Below are positions 1 through 51,028 of a stretch of 64,000 nucleotides of DNA, piece after piece. The stretch comes from Porphyridium purpureum (taxonomy: Eukaryota). The DNA lies in the NCBI GenBank assembly GCA_008690995.1, contig VRMN01000001.1, forward strand, positions 682,001-746,000. Reading direction: 5' to 3'. Within the stretch, counting starts at the first letter, position 1, and each line of letters starts with the position of its first letter. The translations under genes were made by a program, and so were the position numbers. The notes under the pieces were generated by a model. It worked only from the letters and a program-made list of their open reading frames with translations. It was not told where the DNA came from and ran no database searches.

Positions 1-877
1 GTACAGGGGCTTTTTCGCCCGCGTGGTTTTTTACCCTGTACCTCTGGTTTGTGCATTGTTGTCTTTCGCCCCGAGGAGCCGAAGTCGCGTGTCCGAGGGA
101 AGCAGGAGCCGCTTGGCGGCCGGCCAGCACCCATTGAGCCGCTTGCTGACGTGGCTGGCTGTGGCTTCGTTCTGTGGAACGAACGGAGGAAAGCCCAGCC
201 TTTGGGAGAAATAATTTCTCCCTTCCGCGTCAAGGACAGCAAGGACGGCGGGGTATATAATGGGCGCGGGCCCGTGCGGTTCCCCGGATTTCTAGAGAGA
301 AGAAGAAGAAGAGGCAAGGGAGTACGACACAGAGAATAAAGGAAGAGTTGTTCTTTGGTGTCGGGTGCCTGGGCGTGGTCGTCGGAAGGCGTGGGGCCTT
401 TTGCTGAGCCTGTGTAGCAGAGCCAGCAGCACATCGTGTCTGGGGGGTTTCGGTGCTCTTGGAGCACTGAAGGCAGACGGCGGCTTTGTCCGTTACGACA
501 CCCTGCCCCTGTCGAGACCGGTGCTGTCTGTGCCGACGCGAAGGGCAATAGTAGAGGCCCTATACGTTGGATTTTCCACGCCCCGGGTATTCGTCGTCTG
601 TGTTGTGTGCGTCGTGTGGTTGTGTTCTCTGTGCTGTGTGCGTCGTGTTGCTGGGGTTCGGTCATCTGAGAAGGGTTGTGTCATCCGGGTTCGTGCGCTT
701 GTCATCATCAAGCGTGCGAGAATTTAAAGCAGGGTTTAAACTGTACCTCCACTGTTGGGTGTTCTGTATTTTCACCAGCAGGGCAACGCGGCTGAGAAGT
801 TGGCGATGGATGGAGGGATAGGGCAGGGGAAGAAGGGCGAGAAGGGTGAGTGTTGTGAATCGTTGGTCGGAGTCAAG

Positions 878-1543
878 ATGAGCGCGGAGCTCATGGAGCT
901 GGCCAGCATGGACTGGACAAACACAGAGCACATGATGGGAACGACGATCATGGCGACGGCGTTCGACGGCGGTGTGGTGATGGGTGCGGACTCCCGGACA
1001 ACAACTGGCTCGTACATTGCGAATCGCGTCAGCGATAAAATCACCCCGATCACAGACAAGGTGTGGTGCTGCCGTTCCGGATCAGCAGCCGATACCCAGG
1101 CGATCTCGGATTACGTGCGGCTCTACACCGCCCAGCACGCCATCGAGCTGGGCCAGGAGCCGCGCGTCAAGACGGTGGCAAATTTATTCAGAGAAATCTG
1201 CTACTCAAATAAGGCGAATCTGATGGCCGGGATCATCTGCGCCGGCTGGGACCAGTTCAGCGGCGGCCAGGTCTACAACATTACGCTCGGGGGTAGCTGC
1301 GTGCAGCAGCCATTCTCGATTGGCGGCTCTGGTTCGACCTACATCTACGGGTACTGCGACTCGAACTTTCGCGAGAATATGACGCGCGACGAGTGCGTCG
1401 AGTTTGTTAAGCACGCTCTCGCGCTCGCTATGGCGCGCGATGGCTCAAGCGGCGGTGTGATCCGCATGGTGATCATTGACTCGTCCGGTGTGCAAAAAGT
1501 GTTTATTCCAGGAGACAAGCTCCCGATGGCATGGCAGGGATAA
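878..1543 (+). CDS. PSMB6: 20S proteasome subunit beta1 (beta type-6)
   Basis: Propeptide then G/TTIMA catalytic Thr, [52 protein letters not shown] at 878 is in frame with ORF 755..1543. Confidence 0.96.
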
Positions 1544-37325: not shown

Positions 37326-39599
37326 TCACGTCGGCTCATTTTGCTGCTGTTGCTGCCGACGCAGCTGCGCCTGTTTGGGATTGCGCGCTGTGTAATGGGT
37401 ATGCAGCAGTTCGTGAGACTTGTGGCCCAACGGTTTGCCCAGAAAGTCGTCGTACAGCTGAAGGATCTCCGAGTTCTCGTGGCTCGTGCGCAGCGGAAGA
37501 TCCGCGTCGCCCTTGTACACGGCCGCAAACCGTTTTTGCAGAAGCTCCGTGTCCACTGCATCCTTCGGGTTGCCTGCACCTCCAATGCATCCTCCCCGGC
37601 ACGCCATCATCTCGACAAAGTGGTAAGGCGGAGCCGTCCCGGCCCGGATTTTGTCCACCAGCTCGCGCAGATTCGAGCCTTGGTGCGCAATGGCTACCTG
37701 CAGCGCGGTACCGTGTAGGTCTACCGTCGCTTCGCGGATCCCGTTCAAACCGCGCACCTCTTCGAAATTGAGGCGCGGCATGCTCCCTCCGCCAGGCGGC
37801 GCAGTCACCGCGTACGCAGTGCGCAGCGCGGCCTCCATCACACCACCGGTTGTTCCGAACAGCAGCGCCGCACCGCTCGACTTGCCCAGCGGTGAGTCAT
37901 ATTTCGAATCTGGCAATGTCTGGAAACTGATCTTCGGACGGTGCATCTTGATGAGTCGTGCCAGCTCGCGTGTCGTCAATACGTAGTCGACGTCACGTCC
38001 TCCGGCTTCTGTCCTGAAATTCTCGCGACTGGCTTCGTCCTTTTTCGCCACGCATGGCATGATACTTACTACTTTCACCTCGCTCGGATGTCGCCCAATC
38101 TTTTGCGCAAAGTACGACTTTGCGATGCTGCCGAACATTTGCTGGGGGCTTTTGCAGCTGCTTACGTGTGGAATGAGGTCTGGGTACACCTTCTCGACCA
38201 TGTTGATCCAGCCTGGACAGCAACTTGTAAACATGGGGAACGGTCCGCCGTTCGCGATGCGCTGCAGCAGCTCATTGCCTTCTTCGAGAATGGTCAGGTC
38301 AGCGGTGAAATTAGTATCAAACACATAGTCAAAGCCCAGCATTTTCAGCACGGTCACCAGCTGACCCGGCGTCGTTGCGCCCGGTGGAAGGCCAAACGCT
38401 TCTGAAATTGTTATTCTCACAGCCGGGGCCGTCTGCACGACCGAGACATACTTGCGAAGGTCATTTAGCTTCTTCTCCAGCGCATCGTCCTCGCCAAACT
38501 GAACTGGCCCGGCAGACACGGTATTCTTCGTACTCTGGCTCACTTCCTCCTGGGGTGGCACGAGCTCCTGTTCCTCGAGACGTGCATAGTCGATATTATT
38601 CTCCAGAAGATCTTGTACATCCTGCAAGGCGTCCTTTTCGGTGATCGCTGCCACTGGGCAGCTCGCCACACACGCGCCACACGAAATGCACTCTGTTTCC
38701 TTCATATCCAGGTTGTATACGGGCGCTACAACTTCCTCATTGCCGCGCGCTACGACGCCCAGAATGTCCATGCCTTGGAGCTCTGAGCACGCGCGCACGC
38801 AGCGCAAACACAAAACGCACATCTCAAAGTCGAGGTCAAGGGCCGGTGATGTGCGATCATTCGCATGCGCACGTCCGTCCTTCTCCAGGGACGGCTTTAC
38901 GCGTGGCTTGACAAATGGCGGGGGCGGCACGTCGTACCGGCCGACCAGATCTTGGAACTCGCACTGGCCGTTTGCTGCGCACGTCTGGCACCGGTCTGGA
39001 TGCCGGTAGCGCTGCATCGCGATCTGGGAGCGCACGTGGTCCTTGAGTTCTGGCGTATTTGTTAGCACGACCATCCCCTCCGCCGCAGGAGTCGCGCACG
39101 ACGCGACCTTCTTGCCGCGCGATGGGTTGTTTCTCAAAATGTCCACCAGACACAGCCTGCACGTTCCGGCAGGCTCAAGGTTTGGGTGGTAGCATAGCGC
39201 GGGCACGTACACGCCTGCTTTGCGCGCCGCCTCGAGAACCGAAGCCCCTTCAGGCACCTCGACCGAGCGCCCATTGATCATTAATCTCACCATTTTCACC
39301 GCGTGCTGTGCGTGCAGCGCTTGCGCGGCCGCTGTGGAGGTCGCCACATTGGGCACCCAGTCCCACGGCCGCCGATGCTGCGCGAGTGTCAGTTCACTGA
39401 ATGGCTTCGAACTGCCCAACCATGACGTCCTGCCACCTCGCGCCGTCGACGAAGTCATGCGGAGCTGCGTGACGCGCGACACGATAGCCGTCGTGCCCAT
39501 GGCCATCATCGACACCGCACACGAGTGCAGCACGGCTGGCACTTGCGCGTGCAGCATCCATGGCGCCAGCACACTGCTGCCGATCTGCAATGCCTGCAT
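37326..39599 (-). CDS. hydA: [FeFe]-hydrogenase with full F-domain (2Fe-2S, His-ligated 4Fe-4S, 2x4Fe-4S) and N-terminal presequence
   Basis: H-cluster motifs FTSCCPGW, IMPCVAKKDE, EMMACRGGCIGGAG; QTAPAVR, ADLTILEE, TTGGVMEAALRT, SHELLHTHY. F-domain LCYHP..GTCRLC..ASC, HPDRCQTC....QC, CVLCLRCVRAC, CISCGACVASCP. Confidence 0.95.
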   Translation of the reverse strand: MQALQIGSSVLAPWMLHAQVPAVLHSCAVSMMAMGTTAIVSRVTQLRMTSSTARGGRTSWLGSSKPFSELTLAQHRRPWDWVPNVATSTAAAQALHAQHAVKMVRLMINGRSVEVPEGASVLEAARKAGVYVPALCYHPNLEPAGTCRLCLVDILRNNPSRGKKVASCATPAAEGMVVLTNTPELKDHVRSQIAMQRYRHPDRCQTCAANGQCEFQDLVGRYDVPPPPFVKPRVKPSLEKDGRAHANDRTSPALDLDFEMCVLCLRCVRACSELQGMDILGVVARGNEEVVAPVYNLDMKETECISCGACVASCPVAAITEKDALQDVQDLLENNIDYARLEEQELVPPQEEVSQSTKNTVSAGPVQFGEDDALEKKLNDLRKYVSVVQTAPAVRITISEAFGLPPGATTPGQLVTVLKMLGFDYVFDTNFTADLTILEEGNELLQRIANGGPFPMFTSCCPGWINMVEKVYPDLIPHVSSCKSPQQMFGSIAKSYFAQKIGRHPSEVKVVSIMPCVAKKDEASRENFRTEAGGRDVDYVLTTRELARLIKMHRPKISFQTLPDSKYDSPLGKSSGAALLFGTTGGVMEAALRTAYAVTAPPGGGSMPRLNFEEVRGLNGIREATVDLHGTALQVAIAHQGSNLRELVDKIRAGTAPPYHFVEMMACRGGCIGGAGNPKDAVDTELLQKRFAAVYKGDADLPLRTSHENSEILQLYDDFLGKPLGHKSHELLHTHYTARNPKQAQLRRQQQQQNEPT

Positions 39600-40000: not shown

Positions 40001-40187
40001 TTTTGGCACCAACGTCTCTCCTATCGTACTAGTAAACCAGCTATGCGTTGTCATCATTATGCCTTTCCCTCTTACACTTTACGTACAGATTCACAACAAC
40101 CAACAAAATGCACTCAACTTGCAAGCGCTCATCCACCAACTGTACTCACACAGAACACAATCCACCCCCGTTTTTTCATCTTTTATA

Positions 40188-41730
40188 CAGTCCTGGCCAA
40201 GATGTTTGCAACACCCTCATAAAAAGAGAAATTCGTGTAAAAGTGAAGAATCTTGATAGACAAGGGTATGTTTTGAGCACGCCAATCGATCGCACGTCCC
40301 AAGAAACACTGGGGAGCGTCCAACGGGAGGAAAAGGCAAGGAAAGAGCACATGGGCAATGGAGACACCGAAAAGGGGTATTGGCGAGAGGCGCAAGTTTT
40401 GGAACGTAAGAAAGAAACACGAAGATCAAGAAGGATGAGACTTTAGTACTTGGTGTGGTGGCCGCGCACGTCTAGTACAGCTTGAAGACGGCGAGGCATG
40501 GACTCCAACAGTGGAACTACGTACTTTTGGGCCTCGGTCGCCCACGCCGCAAGGACGGCAGCCTTAAGTTCTGCGACGCGTGCGAACTGGCGGCATTTTC
40601 GGTAAACCACGCGCGACAAGACGCCCCAAATGTTTTCAATTGGGTTAAGGTCCGGAGACCTTGCAGGCCACGGCAGCACAGTGACGCCGAGTGCGTCGAG
40701 CCACGCCTTGGTCGAGTTGGCCGTATGTGCCGGGGCATTGTCTTGCTGGAAAGTGAAATTGAAGTCATACATTTCCAGGCCGAACGGAAGCAAGGCTTCC
40801 AGCAAGACTTGTTGATACTTCACGGCATTCAAGCCACCCTCGACGAAGACGGCCATTGTTAGGCCGCGCAGGGACATACCGGCCCACATGTGAACCTTGC
40901 CACCTCCAGAGTGCTGACGCCTGGCGTACGAACTTGACTTAGCGCGACAGTCGACCCATCGCTGCGAGGAGCCGAATGGGCCATCGCAGCTCCAAATCTT
41001 CTCGTCTGAAAAGACCACTTGATGCCAGAAAGCCATTGGTTTCGCAATGAATGCGGTGGCAAACGCCAAACGCTTCCTGATGTTGTCAGACGACAGCGAA
41101 GGTTTCCGCGAGACTCGCTTGTAGCGAAGAAAGCCTGCTGCTTGAAGCGTCCGACGCACTGTCCTGGCCGAGCACTGCAAGTGCAGCTCGTGAACCACCT
41201 GTCCGGACGTCAGTGCATCAACAGATACGAAGCGAATGATGCGGCGTTCCGATTTGCGACTCAAAAGCCGTTTCGGACCTGGCTTCTTGCGGACAATTCG
41301 GCGCCCCCTTGACGCCAGATAACGGCTCACAGTTGCATAGGACGGTCGCGAGCGATCTGGGCGAGGCTTCAGAGCCTTCGCAATGGCTCGCACCGACAGC
41401 TCCTGGCCCGCAAGGGCGTCGATCTGCCCTTTTTCGTGTTCCGACAGCCACGGCGCCATTGTTCGGCCGTCGCGCGCTCAATTTCGATCTGGAGACTCTC
41501 CGCTTGCGCACGACGAGATGGATCAGCGAGCGAAGATCCTTTGAGCACCTTCTGATGGTCTGGGGAAAACAAAAACGCGCGCGCCGCGCCTTGGTTCATC
41601 GTCATGCTCGATGTTGACAATGTTAAAAAAAGAGTTAAAAGTAAGTTTTCTATTAAAATGGGCTATTTCACGATAAGATCCAATTTTTTGGACCAAAATG
41701 CAGGTGTTGCAAACATCTTGGCCAGGACTG
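40188..41730 (-). mobile_element. Intact Tc1/mariner DNA transposon (1543 bp)
   Basis: Perfect 28-bp TIRs CAGTCCTGGCCAAGATGTTTGCAACACC (40188-40215 and reverse complement 41703-41730), flanked by TA duplications (40186-40187, 41731-41732). Confidence 0.97.
40443..41459 (-). CDS. Tc1-family DD34E transposase
   Basis: N-terminal HTH regions, VVFSDEK, FQQDNAPAH, WPARSPDLNPIENIW; 34 residues between the second D and E. Confidence 0.96.
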   Translation of the reverse strand: MAPWLSEHEKGQIDALAGQELSVRAIAKALKPRPDRSRPSYATVSRYLASRGRRIVRKKPGPKRLLSRKSERRIIRFVSVDALTSGQVVHELHLQCSARTVRRTLQAAGFLRYKRVSRKPSLSSDNIRKRLAFATAFIAKPMAFWHQVVFSDEKIWSCDGPFGSSQRWVDCRAKSSSYARRQHSGGGKVHMWAGMSLRGLTMAVFVEGGLNAVKYQQVLLEALLPFGLEMYDFNFTFQQDNAPAHTANSTKAWLDALGVTVLPWPARSPDLNPIENIWGVLSRVVYRKCRQFARVAELKAAVLAAWATEAQKYVVPLLESMPRRLQAVLDVRGHHTKY

Positions 41731-42054
41731 TACATACAAATTGAACATCAAAAATTAAAATTAGAGTTAAAGTTGACGAAGTTCGTCTAGTGATGTGGCG
41801 TGTGACTGTACCTTCTACCAGAATGCCTTTTTTCCCATTGTGGTGGTGCGTCAATTTCTTCTTGCGGTGGGTGTACAGCTGAAATCTCCACACACACACA
41901 AACAAGCGTATCACAATAAATATCGTGCGCGCGCTGGGTCATGAAGTTGTTCTTTCCTTTTAGGCTCGACCCGATCACCATATCAACGCGCATCACACCA
42001 CTACACTAAAACACAACTAATCCCAGTACTAGTGCCAGTCATAATAGTAGTAGT

Positions 42055-42851
42055 CGTGGAATTTTAGGGTTCCGCCCCGAGAGACGCCGTAGGGTTTTGA
42101 GTACAAAACCCTAGAAAGTTCTATGATGAAAGATTGTTCGAGAAGCGTGATGATCTCGGACCTGCGAAATGTTTGTCATTGTCGTTTTGTGTGACCTTGT
42201 GCAAAGGTCAAAGGCCGGCCGAAGCTTCTGGATTCGTTCTTGACGCGCCCTCCCGGCCATTTTCCGGATACGTGGCCGGCTGTGGTTGCGAGTTGTGGAA
42301 CGAATCAAAACCTGTGGTGGAAATTCGTCCTGTTGGAGAAATTTGTTCTCCCGTCCTTGCTGGAAAGAGCAAGGACGAAGGGTATAAAAGGACGAAGGGG
42401 CAAGCTGGTTCCCAGGAATTTCCAGGTCAAGGTAGAAGAAGAGGTAAGGGCAAATAGAATAAAAAGAGAATTGGTTAGTTGGATTGAGGCAGTCGTTGGA
42501 AGACTTGGGTTGGATTTGCGGGAGAGGCACGCTAGCGTGTTGTGCGAGCGGATATCGGTCTGGAGTGTTTTTAAAAAGGCAGCTGGGGTTTAAACGTACC
42601 TTCCATCACCCTTCACTTGTCAAGACCGGTCCACTCCCTCTCGTAGTCCCCTATAAGTTGAATTTTCTGTCCTCTCTTCCTTTCTAGCCACTTTTCTCTG
42701 ATTGTCCTGCTTGTCCTTCCGTTCGTTTCGGTGTGTCGGTTCGTCGTCGGTTTGTCAGTTTCCGGGGTGTGGCGGTTTCCAGTTCCTGTTATCGGTGAAG
42801 CGATCCGGTTTTGTTGATTCGGTTACAAAGCAGAAAGGGAGAAATTCCAAG
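42055..42851 (+). repeat. 5' LTR (CG-TGGAATTT...AAATTCCA-AG)
   Basis: Matches 47019-47815 with one difference noticed (A42194/G47158). TATAAAA at 42383 and AATAAA at 42458. Confidence 0.96.
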
Positions 42852-42869
42852 TGGTATCATCGCCCGGTT
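42852..42869 (+). promoter_or_regulatory. Primer-binding site, probably for initiator tRNA-Met
   Basis: TGGTATCATCGCCCGGTT directly after the LTR. Its reverse complement parses as AA|CCGGG|CGATGAT|A|CCA, a tRNA 3' end. Confidence 0.85.
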
Positions 42870-42880
42870 GTTTGGAGAAA

Positions 42881-43828
42881 ATGGAAAGCCATGAAATGGA
42901 AATGAATGTCCCGCAGGAGAATGCGGCATGGATTGAGGCAGCTAATCAGCTGCATGCGCGCATTGCGGGACAGGAGATGATGATGGCACAAGTGCAGGAA
43001 GCGAATCGTAACCTCCATGAAATGATGCAAGTTTTGTTGCGCCAGCAGACCGTGGCGTCTGGGTCTGGTGACAACGATCGTGCCATGGCCGCGTTAATTG
43101 GGCGCAGTTTGAGAAAGTTTGATGGTCAGCGTGACAAGCTCGTTGTCAATGAATGGCTGATGCGAATGAAGAGCGACCTGGATATCTGCATGCCCGCAGG
43201 TGCTTTGGACTCGCAGAAAGTGATTGTTGCAAGTCGCTTTTTCGAGAGGGACGCAGCGCTGCTTTGGGCAGCTCGTCCGGAGGAGCAGAGAAAGGGCCTT
43301 GCAGAGGCCGGATGGGATGCGTTCGCAAACTTCGTGCGCACAGCGTTTGAGCCGCCGCAGGCGCATTTGACAGCGCGCACCAATCTGTATCAGTTGAAGC
43401 AAGGGAAAATGACGGTCGCAGAATTTGAGCAGAATCTCAGGATGACAGCGTTGTCAGTTGAAGATGTGACAGATGCAGAACTGAACACCATCTTCACGCT
43501 GGGCTTGAAGGAGAAACTGCGTATTGAGGTGGCCCGTCAGGACACAAGGACCTTGGAAGAATCACTGAAAGTTGCGTTGGCAGCTGAGCAGGTTGCAAAG
43601 TTCGGAGGAGATATGAGTCAAGTGATCAAGAACTCGTCATCGACTCATAGCAGGGCGTTCTCGTCGCATTCTGGTAGCGCACCAATGGATTTGGGAGCCA
43701 TGGACAAGCGGAAGTCTGGCAAGACCAAAGTGAAGTGTTACCATTGTGGAGAACGTGGACACATTAAGCCCAAATGCCCTAAATTGAAGGAGCGCTTGGC
43801 AGGTGGTCCGCCAGAGCCGGAAAACTAA
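42881..43828 (+). CDS. gag: Gag (Ty3/gypsy-type capsid plus CCHC zinc knuckle)
   Basis: KFDG...WL, LKQGKMTVAEF, FTLGLK, APMDLG, CYHCGERGHIKPKC. Confidence 0.92.
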   Translation: MESHEMEMNVPQENAAWIEAANQLHARIAGQEMMMAQVQEANRNLHEMMQVLLRQQTVASGSGDNDRAMAALIGRSLRKFDGQRDKLVVNEWLMRMKSDLDICMPAGALDSQKVIVASRFFERDAALLWAARPEEQRKGLAEAGWDAFANFVRTAFEPPQAHLTARTNLYQLKQGKMTVAEFEQNLRMTALSVEDVTDAELNTIFTLGLKEKLRIEVARQDTRTLEESLKVALAAEQVAKFGGDMSQVIKNSSSTHSRAFSSHSGSAPMDLGAMDKRKSGKTKVKCYHCGERGHIKPKCPKLKERLAGGPPEPEN

Positions 43829-43880
43829 GACCTCGAGAGCCAAGACAGGAGGAGATCTCGAGGGGAATGGAGCCTCCTGT
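43819..43880 (+). promoter_or_regulatory. -1 programmed ribosomal frameshift: G_GAA_AAC slippery site plus H-type pseudoknot
   Basis: Heptamer 43819-43825 just before the gag TAA. Pol is in the -1 frame and open across the site. S1 CCTCGAGA/TCTCGAGG, S2 ACAGGAGG/CCTCCTGT. Confidence 0.85.
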
Positions 43881-46800
43881 AATGGGTGTTGTGGAAGGTG
43901 TTGCGCACGAGGGTGCGAGGTCAAGGCTCTTCTACAAACATGGGAAAGTGAGTGGTTCAAAAATCGACTTCTTGATTGACAGTGGAGCGTCGCATAATTT
44001 CCTGGGGTCCCGATTCTTGGACGCAAGCGTAAAGTCCAGTTGCGATGAATGCATGGTCGAGCTTGCGGGAGGACAGAGAATGAAGGTGCACGGCCCCATT
44101 GTGCTTGCGGTGGACCTCGGTTTCTGGATAGGGAACGTCGAGTTTTATATCGGTCCCATTCGTATGGATGCCATCTTAGGGTGGAAATGGCTCAAGATGG
44201 TGAATCCTAAGATTGATTGGCAGAAGGGACTGATGGAAACGAGGCCCGAGGGGAAGGAAATATGCACGTTGGAAAATGTTGAAGAAGTGGTTCCCGAGCT
44301 TGACGGGAAAAATCAGAGCGTGGCTGCTTCGGAACACGAGTTGACTCACATGCCTATGCAAAGAGACTGTGAGACGTGTGTCGTGGCGAAGATAAAGCGA
44401 CGCCCGGCCCGAAGGCTGGAGAAAGATGTCAGTGCATTGTCATTCAATGATGAAGTCGGAATTGACTTGGTGGAGCCTGGGCGAAATGTGAAGTCGGTAG
44501 ATGGTTCAAAGTTTATTTTGACGCATATCGACAGAGCCACAGGATGGGTGACATTGGCGGGGCTACGTGCGAAAACCCACACGGCGGTTGCGGACGCTTG
44601 GAAAAGTGTGCAAGCCGGGAGAGGATGGCCGAAGGTTTTGCGAACGGATGATGGGAATGAGTTCAAGGGAGATGTGGGGAGACTGGTGCGTGAACACCTC
44701 ATAAAGCACGAGGTGGGGATTCCGTACAGGCCAAACAGTCATGCTGAACAGGAGCGGTTTCACCACACGCTGAATCAGGGAATCCGTGCGAATCTTGTGC
44801 AGGCCGGACTCGGGAAGCGTTGGTTCATGCACGCCGCGCAGCATTTTGCGTTCATGACGAATAGACTTCACGTGGGCAGGAAGTCTGGAAAGACGCCGTT
44901 TGAATTACGACATGGTGAAAAATGGTCGCCGAGAAATCTTAGTTTGCCATTCGGGTGCAAGGTGGTCTACAAAGATGATCAGCCTGACAATAAGTATGCA
45001 CCGCGAGGAAAAGTTGGCATTCTCGTCGGCGTTGGAGAGCATCCGATGGCAATTTTGGTGCTTCCTCGGGATGACTGGACGAGTGAGACCCCAAAAGTAA
45101 TTCGCACTCAGGATTTTAAGGCATTTACCCATGAGTTCCCTTTAAAGGGAATTGAACGAGAGGTGGTGAGCCTGAGCCAGCAGGAAGAGTTGCCAGAAGT
45201 GGACGAACCATCCGCGGTTGAAGCGGTGCAGGACTTGGATCGTCGTATCGATGCTCTCAGAGCTAGAGAAGCGGAGCTTGAGAAAGAGATCGAGGCATTG
45301 AAAGTGAGAGTGGTTGACGAAGAACGGGCAGCAGGCACGGGTGGTCCAGTGACGATCCCACAGTTGAACTTAACGACTTTGCTGAAAACTGGAGCGGCGT
45401 TGGCGTCTGAGCAAGGACGAGCCGCGATGGAAAAAGAAGTCAAATCCATGCTGAAATTTGGGGTATGGGATGAGAGTCCCTTGACGCTGGAGGAGGCCCG
45501 GAGGCAACCTGGTGCTCGTTTCGTACGCACACATTTCATTTTCGGTCTGAAATTTGCTGAGATGCCGGAAGAATTTCGCAAGGTGAAGTGCCGCTTGGTG
45601 GCCGGGGGAAACAGGATATGGGGGTCCGATGGAGCTGCGACGAATGACATTTTTGATTATGAGACGCCTGCTGGTTTGTCAGCTATCCGAATGATAATAG
45701 CTGTGGCTGCAATTCTGGGCCTTCAGATTGTTAGTTTCGACATCAGCTCGGCATACCTCCATGCGGACCTGTCTGGGCCACCTACGTTTGCATACTTACC
45801 GCGTGAAATTTGTGATTCAAAAGACACAGTAGTCAGGCTGAGAAAGGCGCTGTATGGCTTGCCCAGGAGCGGCTCGGATTTCTCACAAGATGCTCGGAGG
45901 AGATTGCAAAAGTTCCAGTGGAAGCTCGTGCATGGTGAAAAGAATGTGTACGTCCGGAGAAATGCTGCAAGTTCGTCAGTTGCGTTGTTGGCTCTGTACG
46001 TGGATGATGGTCTATTAGCCTGTCGAGAGGAGGAACGCCCAGGAATCATCGAAGAATTGAAACAAGAGTTTCTCATAGAAAAAGCACCAGAACTATTGAC
46101 GGAAGGAGGATCCTTGAGATTCCTGGGGACGAGCATTTCCCTCAAAAATGGGAGCGTGAGTTTGGCGAATCAAGAGTATCAAGATGTGGTCATTCGGGAA
46201 TTTGAGCAGGATATTAGACGCGTATTGCGTGCCGTGAAGTCACCATCTGAGAAGCTAGATGGCGAGGAAGTTCTGAATTATCAAGTCATCTGGAAGACTT
46301 TGAAAGTAAGAGAACACGTCGGGAGGCTGATGTGGCTCGCCAGAACGGTTCGACCTGATATTGCGTATGCAGTCGGTATGATTGCCCGGTACGTTGACAA
46401 GTGGAATGTGGCAGCAGAAAGGCTGCTCGTACGAGTCGTGCAGTATTTGAAAACACCTCGGGAAGCATTGGAGTATCACGTGTTGGGGAATCTCAAGGAA
46501 GGCATCAGAGGGGTGAACATTCTTGGATACACGGATGCTGACTTTGCTGGTTGTCCAGAGAGTCGTGTGTCGACTTCTGGAAGAGCAACGTACTTAGTTG
46601 CTGGAGATTACAAGTACCTAGTGGATTGGTCTTCGAGAAAGCAGCGTTTCGTGAGCTCGTCGACTTCAGAGTCGGAGTTGGCTGCCCTAGAGGAAACTGT
46701 GCAACTCTCGTTGTTTCCTGCATTGTCTTTCTTGCGAAGTATACGTGACGGAGAGTTCTCGGTGATTTTGATGTGTGACAATCAAGCTGTGATGCGAGCA

Positions 46801-47031
46801 ATAGAGATGGGGTACTCGCCAAAGTTGCATCATATGGCGATAACCCGAGCAACAGATTTGGCCTGGTTGCATCAGGTGTGCGAAAAGCAGAAACTTGTGA
46901 AACTGGCATTTGTGAAGACGGACGAAAATGTGGCGGACTTAATGACCAAGGCCTTATTTCCGGAGGGCCACATTAAGTGCTGGGAGAAGTTACGCGTCCC
47001 TCAGACCGGAAGGAGGAGCGTGGAATTTTAG
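43819..47031 (+). CDS. pol: Pol polyprotein: protease - integrase - reverse transcriptase - RNase H (reached by -1 frameshift)
   Basis: PR LIDSGASHNF, DAILGWKWL. IN HELTH..CETC, IDLV, RTDDGNEF, QERF, PFGC..KYAPRG..GILVG. RT KCRLVAGG, FDISSAYL, KALYGL, LYVDDGL. RH YTDADFAG, STSESEL, CDNQA, ENVADLMTK. Confidence 0.95.
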   Translation, partial: GKLRPREPRQEEISRGMEPPVMGVVEGVAHEGARSRLFYKHGKVSGSKIDFLIDSGASHNFLGSRFLDASVKSSCDECMVELAGGQRMKVHGPIVLAVDLGFWIGNVEFYIGPIRMDAILGWKWLKMVNPKIDWQKGLMETRPEGKEICTLENVEEVVPELDGKNQSVAASEHELTHMPMQRDCETCVVAKIKRRPARRLEKDVSALSFNDEVGIDLVEPGRNVKSVDGSKFILTHIDRATGWVTLAGLRAKTHTAVADAWKSVQAGRGWPKVLRTDDGNEFKGDVGRLVREHLIKHEVGIPYRPNSHAEQERFHHTLNQGIRANLVQAGLGKRWFMHAAQHFAFMTNRLHVGRKSGKTPFELRHGEKWSPRNLSLPFGCKVVYKDDQPDNKYAPRGKVGILVGVGEHPMAILVLPRDDWTSETPKVIRTQDFKAFTHEFPLKGIEREVVSLSQQEELPEVDEPSAVEAVQDLDRRIDALRAREAELEKEIEALKVRVVDEERAAGTGGPVTIPQLNLTTLLKTGAALASEQGRAAMEKEVKSMLKFGVWDESPLTLEEARRQPGARFVRTHFIFGLKFAEMPEEFRKVKCRLVAGGNRIWGSDGAATNDIFDYETPAGLSAIRMIIAVAAILGLQIVSFDISSAYLHADLSGPPTFAYLPREICDSKDTVVRLRKALYGLPRSGSDFSQDARRRLQKFQWKLVHGEKNVYVRRNAASSSVALLALYVDDGLLACREEERPGIIEELKQEFLIEKAPELLTEGGSLRFLGTSISLKNGSVSLANQEYQDVVIREFEQDIRRVLRAVKSPSEKLDGEEVLNYQVIWKTLKVREHVGRLMWLARTVRPDIAYAVGMIARYVDKWNVAAERLLVRVVQYLKTPREALEYHVLGNLKEGIRGVNILGYTDADFAGCPESRVSTSGRATYLVAGDYKYLVDWSSRKQRFVSSSTSESELAALEETVQLSLFPALSFLRSIRDGEFSVILMCDNQAVMRAIEMGYSPKLHHMAITRATDLAWLHQVCEKQKLVKLAFVKTDENVADLMTKALFPEGHIKCWEKLRVPQTGRRSVEF
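47008..47018 (+). promoter_or_regulatory. Polypurine tract
   Basis: GGAAGGAGGAG immediately upstream of the 3' LTR. Confidence 0.88.
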
Positions 47032-47815
47032 GGTTCCGCCCCGAGAGACGCCGTAGGGTTTTGAGTACAAAACCCTAGAAAGTTCTATGATGAAAGATTG
47101 TTCGAGAAGCGTGATGATCTCGGACCTGCGAAATGTTTGTCATTGTCGTTTTGTGTGGCCTTGTGCAAAGGTCAAAGGCCGGCCGAAGCTTCTGGATTCG
47201 TTCTTGACGCGCCCTCCCGGCCATTTTCCGGATACGTGGCCGGCTGTGGTTGCGAGTTGTGGAACGAATCAAAACCTGTGGTGGAAATTCGTCCTGTTGG
47301 AGAAATTTGTTCTCCCGTCCTTGCTGGAAAGAGCAAGGACGAAGGGTATAAAAGGACGAAGGGGCAAGCTGGTTCCCAGGAATTTCCAGGTCAAGGTAGA
47401 AGAAGAGGTAAGGGCAAATAGAATAAAAAGAGAATTGGTTAGTTGGATTGAGGCAGTCGTTGGAAGACTTGGGTTGGATTTGCGGGAGAGGCACGCTAGC
47501 GTGTTGTGCGAGCGGATATCGGTCTGGAGTGTTTTTAAAAAGGCAGCTGGGGTTTAAACGTACCTTCCATCACCCTTCACTTGTCAAGACCGGTCCACTC
47601 CCTCTCGTAGTCCCCTATAAGTTGAATTTTCTGTCCTCTCTTCCTTTCTAGCCACTTTTCTCTGATTGTCCTGCTTGTCCTTCCGTTCGTTTCGGTGTGT
47701 CGGTTCGTCGTCGGTTTGTCAGTTTCCGGGGTGTGGCGGTTTCCAGTTCCTGTTATCGGTGAAGCGATCCGGTTTTGTTGATTCGGTTACAAAGCAGAAA
47801 GGGAGAAATTCCAAG
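47019..47815 (+). repeat. 3' LTR
   Basis: Direct repeat of 42055-42851 at offset 4964. Confidence 0.96.
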
Positions 47816-48607
47816 GTAGTTGTTGTTTGTTGTAGTAGTGATAGTAGTGAGAGAATGGATTCGATGAGGTACTGTCATTTTGGTGAGAGAACTAGGAAAC
47901 GTGGTGTGCGCGATGGTGGAGAAGAAGAAGGGGGTGGGTGTGGGTGTGGGTGAGGGGGGGATGAGTGAGTGTCTGTGTGGATGGTAAAGGGGTTCACGGT
48001 GAGCTGAATCGACGGCGCGGCGTGCGGCAGGGGGAAAGGTGGGGTGGGAACTGTCCGGCGGGTGTGGCATTCACGCAGCCCGCGGGCTCCGGCGTCGCGC
48101 AGATCTACAGCGTGAGGTAATGCGCCACGTGCGTGCAGCGGCGTTCGTGTGACCAAAGCGGTTCGCCCGCGCGGCTTCGGGAAAAAGAGGGCAGAACAGT
48201 AAAGGCGTCTGGTGAGGCTTACGCGGTACAAACGTGCATCAGACTGAGAGAAGGAGCCTGGCGCGGGGGTTTGTGGGGGTTCCAGACGTCTGCGTTGAGA
48301 CGAGGAAGCGCTGACTTCATCGGCTGCTCGCGGGGACCGCAGTTCTAGGAGCTTCGGTTCATGCAGGCCAGGGGGTGCCTTGTGTTTCCGTGCATCGGCG
48401 TGCAGAACAAGGATTTGAAGGTTACCGCTCAGAAGTGAGGAGATAGGCCTCGTTGGCTCCACCAGGAGCGTAGGACGCTCGTGCTGACTGACTTGCGAGG
48501 AGGGCTGCTCTCCAGGCTTTTTGAACTTTACTCGGCGCATCATCTGTTTTGGACAAATCAAATTCAGGTGGAAGGCCCACAATAAGTTTCTTCAAGAGAG
48601 AAGAGCG

Positions 48608-51028
48608 ATGAGTCATTATGCTAAACAGCCCGACGCTGTTGCAGATTCGCAGTGCGAAACGGAAACAGCGATCAGTGCGCACAAGGAAAAGAATGCCGCC
48701 GCGGAACAGGCGGACGAGCATCATGAACAAAACCGTCTTTCCCATAACCAAGCTTGCTTTGGAGCAAGCGGCGCCTCTTCTGTCGAGGAAGTTGGGCACA
48801 AGCCTCAAAGTAATGGGGAAATGTCGACTGCCGTGGGCACAGATGAAACGGCCGATATAGAGGAGCACGAGAACGGAACGGTCTCGGGGGCCCCGGCAAA
48901 AGTGCCGTCCCCAAAGCAAGAGCGGGCTCTTGAAACGCTGGTGGAAGAGCAACGGCCTTTCTCGGCCGTGACACCAGATAAGGCCTCGAGTCCTGCGACG
49001 GTACCGACCGACGTAGTTGGGGGCCAGCAGGACCTCGAGGCACATGGCAGTGGAGCTCGCATGAAAGTTTGGATTCCTATTGACAGAGTCGGTCTTTTGA
49101 TCGGCCAAAAGGGCTGCATGATACGAACCCTGCAGGAGCGCTCTGGTGCGGTGATCACGGTGCATAATGATCGCGTGGACGAGGTGAACAGAATGAAACT
49201 TGTCACAATCTCTGGCGCGCGGGCGAGTGTCAATACAGCGCGCGGTCTGATCGACAATATAATGTCGCGCCCGGCTCCGCTCGGCGTGCGGTCAACACCT
49301 CAAGGTATTGTTCCATCGAGCCCTTCTGCTGCCTCGTTGATGTCACCATATCCTGGCATGGCGACACCGGTTCCGATTTTGCCTCCGTTCTATCTGCAAC
49401 CGCCGGAAGATACAACCAGCGCTTCGCCCGGTATGCCAATGAATGAGGGAGGGAGAAGAAGACCGCACCAGCCTCAGCAGCACGTTCAGCAATGGATGGA
49501 TCCAATGATGCATGCATATTATGGGGCGGTTGCAGCCGCGCCGAGCGGGTTTCCCAGTGCGCCTTACGCGGCCTACACAAATGCGCTATATGGAGGAATG
49601 GCGTACCCGGGGATGGGGATGAGCTTGGGGATGCCTGGTGGTGAGTCAAGGACAGGGTCAAGCCCGGGCATGCGTGCAAGGTCTTATACGGGATTGTCTG
49701 GAAACATGAGTTCAGCTGCTCAGTCGCCACATATGGCATTAACCTCGCGGCAAGTGCTGATACCAAATTCATCCGTAGGCGTGGTTATAGGCAAGGGCGG
49801 TGAGGCCATCAAAACGCTTCAGAACCGATCTCGCGCGTTGATCAAAGTCACTCCCGATAGTCGCGCGGATAAGAGCATCAGTGAGCGTGTCGTGACGATT
49901 TGCGGGACAGCAGAAGCAATCGAGGCGGCTGAGCGAATGCTGATGGAATTAATTTCCGAGCACGTCCAGCGGAAGCAGCAGCGCGGCTGGAGAAAGGGGA
50001 CCGCCGATCTTGGAGGGGATGATGAGCGTTTGGAGGCAGATGTCCGCGACTTGTCGCTCTCGGAACGGAATCTGTCCGACACGAGTGCAACAAACACAGT
50101 CGGGACACCTGCAAGTCCATCAGCGCCTGGTTTGCAGCAGCAGCAGCAGCAGCAACAACAACAACAACAACAACAGCAACAGCAGCAGGAGTACCAGGAG
50201 CAGCAGTTGCAAGATCCTGATGCTGCTCATGCTCAGCAGTGGTACTACCACAATGCAATGAATAATCAAGGTTTTGATCCAGGCACACCGGCCAGTGTTG
50301 AACAGCTTGAGCAGTTCCAGCTCCAACAGCAGGCAAACATGTACTACGGGTTCATGCCATACTATGGGGGCGGCGGTGCAGCATCGCAAGTGCTCCCTGC
50401 CAGTATGCTGGTCCCGAGCGACAAGGTCGGTTTGATCATCGGTCGCGGAGGCGCGACTATTCGAGACATTCAACAACGCGCACAAGTCCGTGTTGTAGTA
50501 GGCAGGGAAGGGGAGTCGCGTGATCCGCGCTTTCGAATTCTTTCTATATCAGGCTCGGTGCCCGCAGTAGAGTATGCGAAGCACCTAATCATGGAAGCGC
50601 TTCACGGAGCTCGGGATGGTTCATTGAATGCCGCGAAGCGTTTTCACGAAGAGGAGACCAAGTATCAGACAGGCGGCGGCGGAAGCAGCAGAGGAGGAGC
50701 ATATGAGGGCGGCGGCGGTCCGCAGGGCGGAGAAACGCACTACATGGGAGCGCCGGGGTACATGGGATTTTCATCAGAGTATTCCGGCTTGATCCCACCG
50801 GCAACTGGTGCTGCCGGCGGTGATCCGTCTGATCCGTCTCATGCTAGATTTTTGCCTGGCGGTATGATGATGTACCCGCCACAGGAATACATGCAGTACA
50901 TGTATGGTTACATCCCGACCATGCCACCAGTTACGCACAGCAGCGGCGGGGAAATGAAGTATCCTTCCGAGGTCATCGAGGGCTTCGCCTCTGCACCGCA
51001 GTCGGAGCTCGGTCAAGACGATGAATGA
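48608..51028 (+). CDS. KH-domain RNA-binding protein (3 KH domains, FUBP-like)
   Basis: VGLLIGQKG, VGVVIGKGGEAIK, VGLIIGRGGATIR; Tyr/Gly/Pro-rich linkers. Confidence 0.92.
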   Translation: MSHYAKQPDAVADSQCETETAISAHKEKNAAAEQADEHHEQNRLSHNQACFGASGASSVEEVGHKPQSNGEMSTAVGTDETADIEEHENGTVSGAPAKVPSPKQERALETLVEEQRPFSAVTPDKASSPATVPTDVVGGQQDLEAHGSGARMKVWIPIDRVGLLIGQKGCMIRTLQERSGAVITVHNDRVDEVNRMKLVTISGARASVNTARGLIDNIMSRPAPLGVRSTPQGIVPSSPSAASLMSPYPGMATPVPILPPFYLQPPEDTTSASPGMPMNEGGRRRPHQPQQHVQQWMDPMMHAYYGAVAAAPSGFPSAPYAAYTNALYGGMAYPGMGMSLGMPGGESRTGSSPGMRARSYTGLSGNMSSAAQSPHMALTSRQVLIPNSSVGVVIGKGGEAIKTLQNRSRALIKVTPDSRADKSISERVVTICGTAEAIEAAERMLMELISEHVQRKQQRGWRKGTADLGGDDERLEADVRDLSLSERNLSDTSATNTVGTPASPSAPGLQQQQQQQQQQQQQQQQQQEYQEQQLQDPDAAHAQQWYYHNAMNNQGFDPGTPASVEQLEQFQLQQQANMYYGFMPYYGGGGAASQVLPASMLVPSDKVGLIIGRGGATIRDIQQRAQVRVVVGREGESRDPRFRILSISGSVPAVEYAKHLIMEALHGARDGSLNAAKRFHEEETKYQTGGGGSSRGGAYEGGGGPQGGETHYMGAPGYMGFSSEYSGLIPPATGAAGGDPSDPSHARFLPGGMMMYPPQEYMQYMYGYIPTMPPVTHSSGGEMKYPSEVIEGFASAPQSELGQDDE
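50135..50188 (+). repeat. CAG/CAA repeat encoding Q18
   Basis: Read directly inside the KH protein. Confidence 0.95.

What the first reader, a model, noticed from the sequence alone, without database searches (positions are those of the whole stretch)
42050..47820. Non-canonical integrated ends: extra dinucleotides CG/AG kept outside TG...CA, suggesting integration without 3' processing
Seen: both LTRs hold a TGGAATTT...AAATTCCA inverted repeat, but the shared repeat runs 2 bp further each side (CG-TG...CA-AG). The 5-bp duplication GTAGT abuts the CG and AG. With TG...CA boundaries the flanks (AGTCG vs AGGTA) do not match. CG is the spacer between PPT and TG; AG is the spacer between CA and PBS. 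Established: retroviral and Ty3 integrases trim such terminal dinucleotides, while Ty1 integrase joins blunt ends. Inference: this integrase inserted the unprocessed cDNA ends, which fits a non-processing copia-type IN acting on LTRs built for processing. TG..CA-based LTR finders would mis-call this family.
Basis: partly seen in the sequence, partly recalled or inferred. Interest (0 to 1): 0.8.

Follow-up and report, generated by a model that had tools for sequence, protein, structure and literature searches.

The report
Algal retrotransposon inserting with untrimmed ends
A young jumping-gene family in the red alga Porphyridium sits in the genome with CG…AG ends, two bases outside the near-universal TG…CA ends, likely because its integrase joins the DNA copy without the usual trimming step.

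Summary
Observation confirmed and family-wide. The element (42055-47815) is an intact, recently inserted LTR retrotransposon of Porphyridium purpureum: 797-bp LTRs (1 mismatch), Ty3-type gag/protease, copia-order IN-RT-RH. The only 5-bp duplication that fits the repeat boundary (GTAGT) abuts CG and AG. In public assemblies the LTR graph branches exactly at CG and AG (797-nt contig in 2 of 4 runs, one study). At least three other left and four other right junctions keep CG or AG. Two studies hold the empty site, with no CG; the length of one contig fits one GTAGT exactly. A sister family's LTR at window 1-729 probably also ends in AG but has lost the inner CA. So the joined 3' ends are AG and CG, not CA. 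Blunt joining of cDNA ends set by the polypurine tract and tRNA primer is the likeliest mechanism (about 0.65). Trimming at a shifted register cannot be excluded from DNA alone. No second complete TSD pair was read. Non-TG…CA ends are known, but I found no paper on this pattern. New variant of a known kind.

The parts
42050..42054 (.). Left target-site duplication GTAGT
   Evidence: contigs of the empty allele match up to 42054 and then leave
42055..42851 (+). 5' LTR, 797 bp: terminal CG (42055-56), inner TGGAATTT (42057-64), inner AAATTCCA (42842-49), terminal AG (42850-51)
   Evidence: contig of exactly 42055-42851 in runs X4 and X6
42852..42869 (+). Primer-binding site, 18 nt, directly after terminal AG; fits the 3' end of an initiator-Met-like tRNA (identity inferred from recalled tRNA architecture; no tRNA gene in window)
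42881..43828 (+). gag, 315 aa, Ty3/gypsy-type capsid plus one CCHC knuckle; ends in G GAA AAC TAA, a likely -1 frameshift site into pol
   Evidence: Pfam Retrotrans_gag 2e-9, Ty3_capsid 1.5e-8, zf-CCHC
43783..47031 (+). pol, open frame of 1082 codons: protease (43972), integrase (compact HHCC 44335; D 44458-75, D 44641-64, E 44743-66), RT (YVDD 45997), RNase H (46528-46950); reads through the PPT into the 3' LTR
47008..47018 (+). Polypurine tract, directly before terminal CG of the 3' LTR
47019..47815 (+). 3' LTR, 797 bp, CG…AG
47816..47820 (.). Right target-site duplication GTAGT
1..729 (+). Left-truncated LTR of the sister family (pol about 70% identical); colinear with the focal LTR, probably ends …AATTTAA-AG at 729, without the inner CA

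Best explanation
This is an intact LTR retrotransposon family whose copies are inserted with CG…AG ends and a 5-bp duplication, likely because its integrase joins the reverse-transcribed DNA blunt, without removing two bases. Shown: the inserted ends, the duplication at this locus, the same ends in other copies, an empty allele without CG, intact DDE and RT motifs. Inferred: RNase H leaves the plus-strand primer just before CG and removes the tRNA just after AG, so the cDNA is CG-TG…CA-AG; the integrase attacks the target with G-3'OH on both strands (…AAG and …ACG) at a 5-bp stagger. Inferred history: an ancestor trimmed to TG…CA; once trimming was lost the spacers became the ends, and the inner CA was free to decay, as in the sister family.
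For: Repeat boundary, TSD, PPT and PBS all meet at the same two points. 797-nt LTR contig in 2 of 4 runs and a 4227-nt internal contig (4167+30+30) in X6. Other junctions keeping CG: X6/X4 flank, one X2 flank, X2 row at 42062; keeping AG: two X2 contigs, one X1, one X4 (decomposition). None of the 24 loose-end rows shown (of 49) lies at 42057 or 42849. Empty allele in X1 and X2: match stops at 42054; the 2692-nt X1 contig would end at 50163, the first 30-mer wholly inside a polyQ repeat, only if it resumes at 47821. Sister LTR ends at 729 in 10 of 30 alignment settings, 730 in 5; another copy's gene model diverges right after. 13 of 15 listed family proteins keep HHCC and DDE motifs. Precedent for joining without trimming: Ty1 (PMC8487063) and the foamy virus U3 end (PMC3738965), passages.
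Against: No cDNA end and no enzyme assay was seen. No second complete left-plus-right TSD pair was read; the X2 pair (left NACNC, right minimum AACAC) is only compatible. X4 and X6 are one study and show one other left flank. 25 loose-end rows and 177 pieces were not displayed. Ty1 integrase needs CA at the blunt end under physiological metal (PMC8487063), so an enzyme using NG-3' needs changed specificity. Retroviral RNase H can leave a tRNA base on the cDNA (recalled), which would give something to trim. 15 of 30 alignment settings did not place the sister end at 729-730.
Confidence: 0.66

Rival explanations
1. Trimming at a shifted register: the cDNA is longer than CG…AG (PPT cut inside the purine run, one or two tRNA-derived bases kept), and the integrase still trims, but after AG/CG instead of after CA.
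For: Gives exactly the same inserted sequence. The DDE site is intact and uses one active site for both reactions (mechanism in PMC12789967, passages). Two right junctions continue TGG after AG (X1, X4), which could be kept primer bases.
Against: Needs both primer cuts and the recognition site to move together by two bases; the ends coincide with the PPT and PBS borders to the base. The TGG rows are as well explained by targets beginning TGGAT.
Confidence: 0.24
2. Ordinary drift of terminal sequence in an always-blunt, Ty1-like lineage; the inner TG…CA is only part of a terminal inverted repeat and never was a trimming site.
For: The inverted repeat extends to the outermost base (C-G/T-TGGAATTT). 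Non-TGCA ends arise repeatedly by mutation in plant copia (PMC9804982, passages). The sister lacks the inner CA.
Against: TG and CA sit exactly two bases in at both ends, the spacing of trimmed elements; the sister pol C-terminus (RRSMD) implies YA-TG-GA at the same register (inferred from codons).
Confidence: 0.07
3. One-off event or artefact: a single untrimmed cDNA captured by repair, a chance TSD in a low-complexity flank, or mis-assembly.
For: Flanks are GTA/GTT-rich (chance 0.3-1.8%); repair captures Ty1 cDNA with extra bases (PMC11372161, passages).
Against: Same ends at several other loci in three studies; clean empty allele; sister family probably alike.
Confidence: 0.03

Closest known systems
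Ty1 of Saccharomyces cerevisiae
   Same: Copia-order pol; cDNA joined without 3' processing; (PMC8487063, passages).
   Different: Ty1 ends are TG…CA with no spacers and its integrase needs CA; here the joined ends are AG-3' and CG-3', with TG…CA buried two bases in. Gag and protease here are Ty3-type.
Plant copia elements with spacers (Sireviruses; Tnt1)
   Same: Dinucleotide between PPT and TG and between CA and PBS (PMC2829016, passages; Tnt1 seen only as a reference title).
   Different: There the spacers are trimmed and absent from insertions; here they are kept.
Non-TGCA plant copia (Tos17 TG…GA, TARE1 TA…CA, lotus TGCT etc., Rosaceae TGTT and AACA)
   Same: Families with non-CA joined ends and normal TSDs (bioRxiv 10.1101/137141 and PMC9804982, passages; PMC5659011, first part).
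   Different: Described as point changes of TG…CA, nearly always starting with T; none is reported as an intact TG…CA with two extra bases outside, and CG…AG is not among the listed motifs.
Drosophila errantiviruses (gypsy, ZAM, Idefix groups)
   Same: Whole group without TG…CA (AGT…AnT; PMC5408687, section 4); joined ends A-n-T, formally like A-n-G here.
   Different: Ty3/gypsy pol with env; different terminal bases; target-site specific.
Foamy virus
   Same: One end (U3) joined without trimming (PMC3738965, passages); top structural matches of the model.
   Different: Still joins CA; U5 end is trimmed.
GalEa / CoDi / PyRE copia of red algae, diatoms and marine animals
   Same: Copia in red algae incl. 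Porphyridium cruentum; two-ORF layout in CoRex1; three CoDi families lack TG/CA (PMC3587641, PMC5445492, PMC2806351, passages).
   Different: GalEa has TG…CA, PBS TGGTAGCAGAGC and HX4HX30CX2C; this element has none of these. No named references were in my tree.

Membership tests
Ty1/copia superfamily | pol order PR-IN-RT-RH | tested here: met
   motif coordinates; Pfam
Ty1/copia superfamily | copia-type RT (RVT_2) | tested here: met
   E 1.7e-18; all best relatives are copia-type
Ty1/copia superfamily | LTRs, PBS, PPT, 5-bp TSD | tested here: met
Canonical copia lineages | inserted ends TG…CA | tested here: not met
   CG…AG
Canonical copia lineages | long HHCC spacing and NG-x-x-ER loop in integrase | tested here: not met
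   compact H-x3-H-x6-C-x2-C; Gly at HIV-149 position in 40 of 42 outside vs 7 of 42 inside the clade
Canonical copia lineages | copia-type gag | tested here: not met
   Retrotrans_gag and Ty3_capsid only; same in P0003, P0045, P0047
Ty3/gypsy | pol order PR-RT-RH-IN and gypsy RT | tested here: not met
GalEa clade | PBS TGGTAGCAGAGC, TG…CA ends, HX4HX30CX2C | tested here: not met
   features; sequence
GalEa / CoDi clades | RT-RH grouping with named members | not tested
   no named reference sequences in the tree
Ty1-type blunt integrators | cDNA ends equal inserted ends, no 3' processing | not testable with these tools
   needs cDNA ends or enzyme assay; only contigs were served
Errantiviruses | AGT…AnT ends, gypsy pol, env | tested here: not met

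The most novel reading that the evidence does not exclude
A wide protist clade of copia-order elements (compact zinc finger, changed integrase loop; 55 of 100 tree tips, support 1.0) has given up both 3' processing and the CA rule. The Porphyridium pair would then be a caught intermediate showing how non-TG…CA termini arise: trimming is lost, spacers become ends, the old CA decays. Such families would be missed or mis-bounded by TG…CA-based finders across algae and dinoflagellates.
Probability: 0.25. Interest if true: 0.8.

Novelty: new variant of a known kind. Interest (0 to 1): 0.6.

Why it matters
Joining at CA-3' is treated as nearly invariant for retroviral and LTR integrases, and even blunt-joining Ty1 needs CA. 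An active, intact family that joins G-3' ends with the old TG…CA still visible two bases inside gives a natural, culturable system to ask what couples CA recognition to 3' processing, and offers a route to non-canonical termini other than point mutation. It also predicts boundary errors in repeat annotation: a TG…CA call finds no TSD here.

Tried and rejected
No whole genome is held, so copies could not be listed. Only 41700-43100 was laid on contigs (4 of 24 runs); the right flank and the empty-site joint were not displayed. Contig depths were not used as copy numbers. Viral contigs: LTR start 0 matches; alignments gave 25 and 13 pattern hits, none confirmed; the 23-sequence alignment was too diverse to search with. 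Metagenome scan with an RT motif: 53 loci, 16 with pol hits, none with both LTRs and flanks, so ends of distant relatives are untested. The protein atlas gave no answer. Earlier findings: nothing. Gag search among longer proteins found only Porphyridium (2 hits), so the source of the Ty3-type gag is open. The AlphaFold model (pLDDT 83) matches intasomes and RTs but says nothing on processing. A 10%-diverged copy with CG-AG before the PBS (42849 A>G) is one contig per run and was given little weight. An end at 731 (…GCA) for the sister LTR was considered and disfavoured: 2 of 10 vs 7 of 10 terminal matches, and P0041 has Gly where it would have Ala. Literature: ten searches; none listed a paper on Porphyridium LTR termini or on kept spacers; the Tnt1 paper was not held; no supplements or Repbase entries were seen, and these may describe the family.

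Full report
Observation. The direct repeat runs 42055-42851 and 47019-47815, 797 bp with one mismatch; the bases just outside differ at both ends. Each LTR starts CG-TGGAATTT and ends AAATTCCA-AG. GTAGT lies immediately outside CG and AG. Of 6 duplications found over all nearby boundary pairs, none has TG or CA as boundary. The flanks are low in complexity, so a 5-mer match has a 0.3-1.8% chance. The LTR ends occur nowhere else in the window.

What the element is. gag (42881-43828) hits Retrotrans_gag, Ty3_capsid and zf-CCHC; pol (43783-47031, -1 frame) has a gypsy-like aspartic protease, then integrase, an RVT_2 RT and RNase H. The integrase core aligns with HIV-1 integrase over the second Asp and the Glu, and the model matches intasomes and RTs. 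Near-identical proteins are named Porphyridium purpureum; the cluster has 16 members, and 13 of the 15 listed keep HHCC and DDE motifs. A sister family is about 70% identical (17 members). In an RT-RH tree of 100 of 103 sequences tried, the element falls in a 55-tip clade (support 1.0) apart from canonical copia. The clade has a compact H-x3-H…C-x2-C finger and mostly lacks the Gly of the NG-x-x-ER loop (7 of 42 vs 40 of 42). It includes several more Porphyridium families, a Prorocentrum protein and unnamed environmental proteins. The tree held no named GalEa, CoDi or Ty1 references.

Other copies. Twenty of 24 listed runs hold the stretch; four were laid on 41700-43100, all as contigs. In X4 and X6 (one study) a contig is exactly 42055-42851. 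Assembly graphs break where neighbours differ, so a trimmed family would break at 42057 and 42849. X6 also has a 4227-nt contig, the 4167-bp interior plus 30 bases of LTR each side. Loose ends lie before 42055 (X2 two contigs, X4 two, X6 one) and after 42851 (X2 two) or 42854 (X1, X4; flank begins TGG). One X2 row shows a flank followed by CG-TGGAAT in a copy with an extra T. The two-contig rows could be decomposed: in X4 they are the PPT side plus the X6 flank, and in X2 probably the PPT side plus a new flank. That leaves three other left and four other right junctions, all keeping CG or AG. Only 24 of 49 loose-end rows and 32 of 209 pieces were shown. No complete second TSD pair was read; the X2 left (NACNC) and right (minimum AACAC) letters are compatible with one.

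Empty allele. In X1 and X2 (two studies) a contig matches 41706-42054 without differences and then runs on for 2343 and 364 bases without LTR sequence. The match stops before CG, so the target did not hold CG. If the X1 contig resumes at 47821 it ends at 50163, the first 30-mer lying wholly inside a CAG/CAA repeat, where such an assembly is expected to break; resuming at 47814 or 47816 does not hit that point. That the 30-mer recurs elsewhere in the genome is assumed. This fits one GTAGT and no CG or AG, and shows the insertion is recent and polymorphic.

Sister family. Window 1-729 is a left-truncated LTR of the sister family, colinear with the focal LTR (score 251, shuffles at most 65). Its end aligns at 729 in 10 of 30 settings and 730 in 5; 9 settings were degenerate, 5 gave 808, 1 gave 717. 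It reads …GAATTTAA-AG against …AAATTCCA-AG. The gene model P0041 of another copy agrees up to that G and then diverges; a splice there cannot be excluded. The sister pol ends RRSMD where this one ends RRSVEF, which implies YA-TG-GA after the PPT (inferred from codons). So terminal AG is probably shared and the inner CA is not.

Mechanism. Established: PPT and tRNA primer set the cDNA ends, spacers are copied onto them, and integrase normally trims them to CA (PMC2829016 and PMC12789967, passages). Ty1 joins blunt TG…CA ends and needs the CA (PMC8487063, passages); foamy virus leaves U3 untrimmed (PMC3738965, passages). Here the inserted ends coincide to the base with the PPT and PBS borders. 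The simplest reading is blunt strand transfer with G-3'OH on both strands (0.66). Trimming at a shifted register gives the same insertion and stays open (0.24). An always-blunt lineage with a chance inner TG…CA (0.07) and a one-off or artefact (0.03) are weak. The changed integrase loop is a clade-wide correlate, not evidence of cause.

Comparison. Non-TG…CA ends are known: plant copia motifs that nearly always start with T (bioRxiv 10.1101/137141 and PMC9804982, passages), TGTT and AACA (PMC5659011, first part), errantivirus AGT…AnT (PMC5408687, section 4), GyRex2 CT…AA (PMC3587641, passages) and three CoDi families (PMC2806351, passages). None of what I read describes an intact TG…CA with both spacers kept. 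Ten searches listed no paper on Porphyridium LTR ends; subscription papers, Repbase and supplements were not seen.

Verdict. Real, family-wide, and probably shared with the sister family. It belongs to the copia superfamily by pol order and RT but not to the canonical lineages. New variant of a known kind; interest 0.6.

Noticed in passing
window 42881-44001: Ty3/gypsy-type gag and protease on a copia-order IN-RT-RH, with a likely -1 frameshift; shared by at least three other Porphyridium families. Possible old chimera.
   Followed up: partly
window 40186-41732 (-): Intact Tc1/mariner element: 35-nt TIRs, TA at both ends, 338-aa transposase; many copies in runs. It lies 320 bp from the LTR element in the same divergent intergenic region.
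   Followed up: partly
window 37326-39599 (-): Long-type [FeFe]-hydrogenase-like gene with N-terminal 2Fe-2S and 4Fe-4S domains in a red alga; whether it is a true hydrogenase or already reported was not settled (search listing only).
   Followed up: partly
window 729-880 and 47816-48608; flanks: Both LTR insertions in the window lie upstream of genes (proteasome beta-like subunit, name recalled from the translation; KH-domain protein). Left flanks seen are C/A-rich and most right flanks G/T-rich, hinting at promoter-proximal targeting.
   Followed up: no
window 42852-42854 (runs X1, X4): Two contigs continue TGG-AT after the terminal AG: either targets beginning TGGAT or kept primer bases.
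   Followed up: no
L044 3440-6580: Relative with permuted pol: RT C-terminal half and RNase H upstream of integrase, RT palm downstream in another frame. Real permutation or mis-assembly.
   Followed up: partly
P0003 residues 860-909: Sister-family pol carries a Myb-like domain between integrase and RT, a possible targeting module absent from the focal family's Pfam hits.
   Followed up: no
L014 after RNase H; L043/L006 after RNase H: Purine tracts followed by CA-TG (L014) or CA-GG (L043, L006) in distant relatives; LTR ends could not be fixed.
   Followed up: partly
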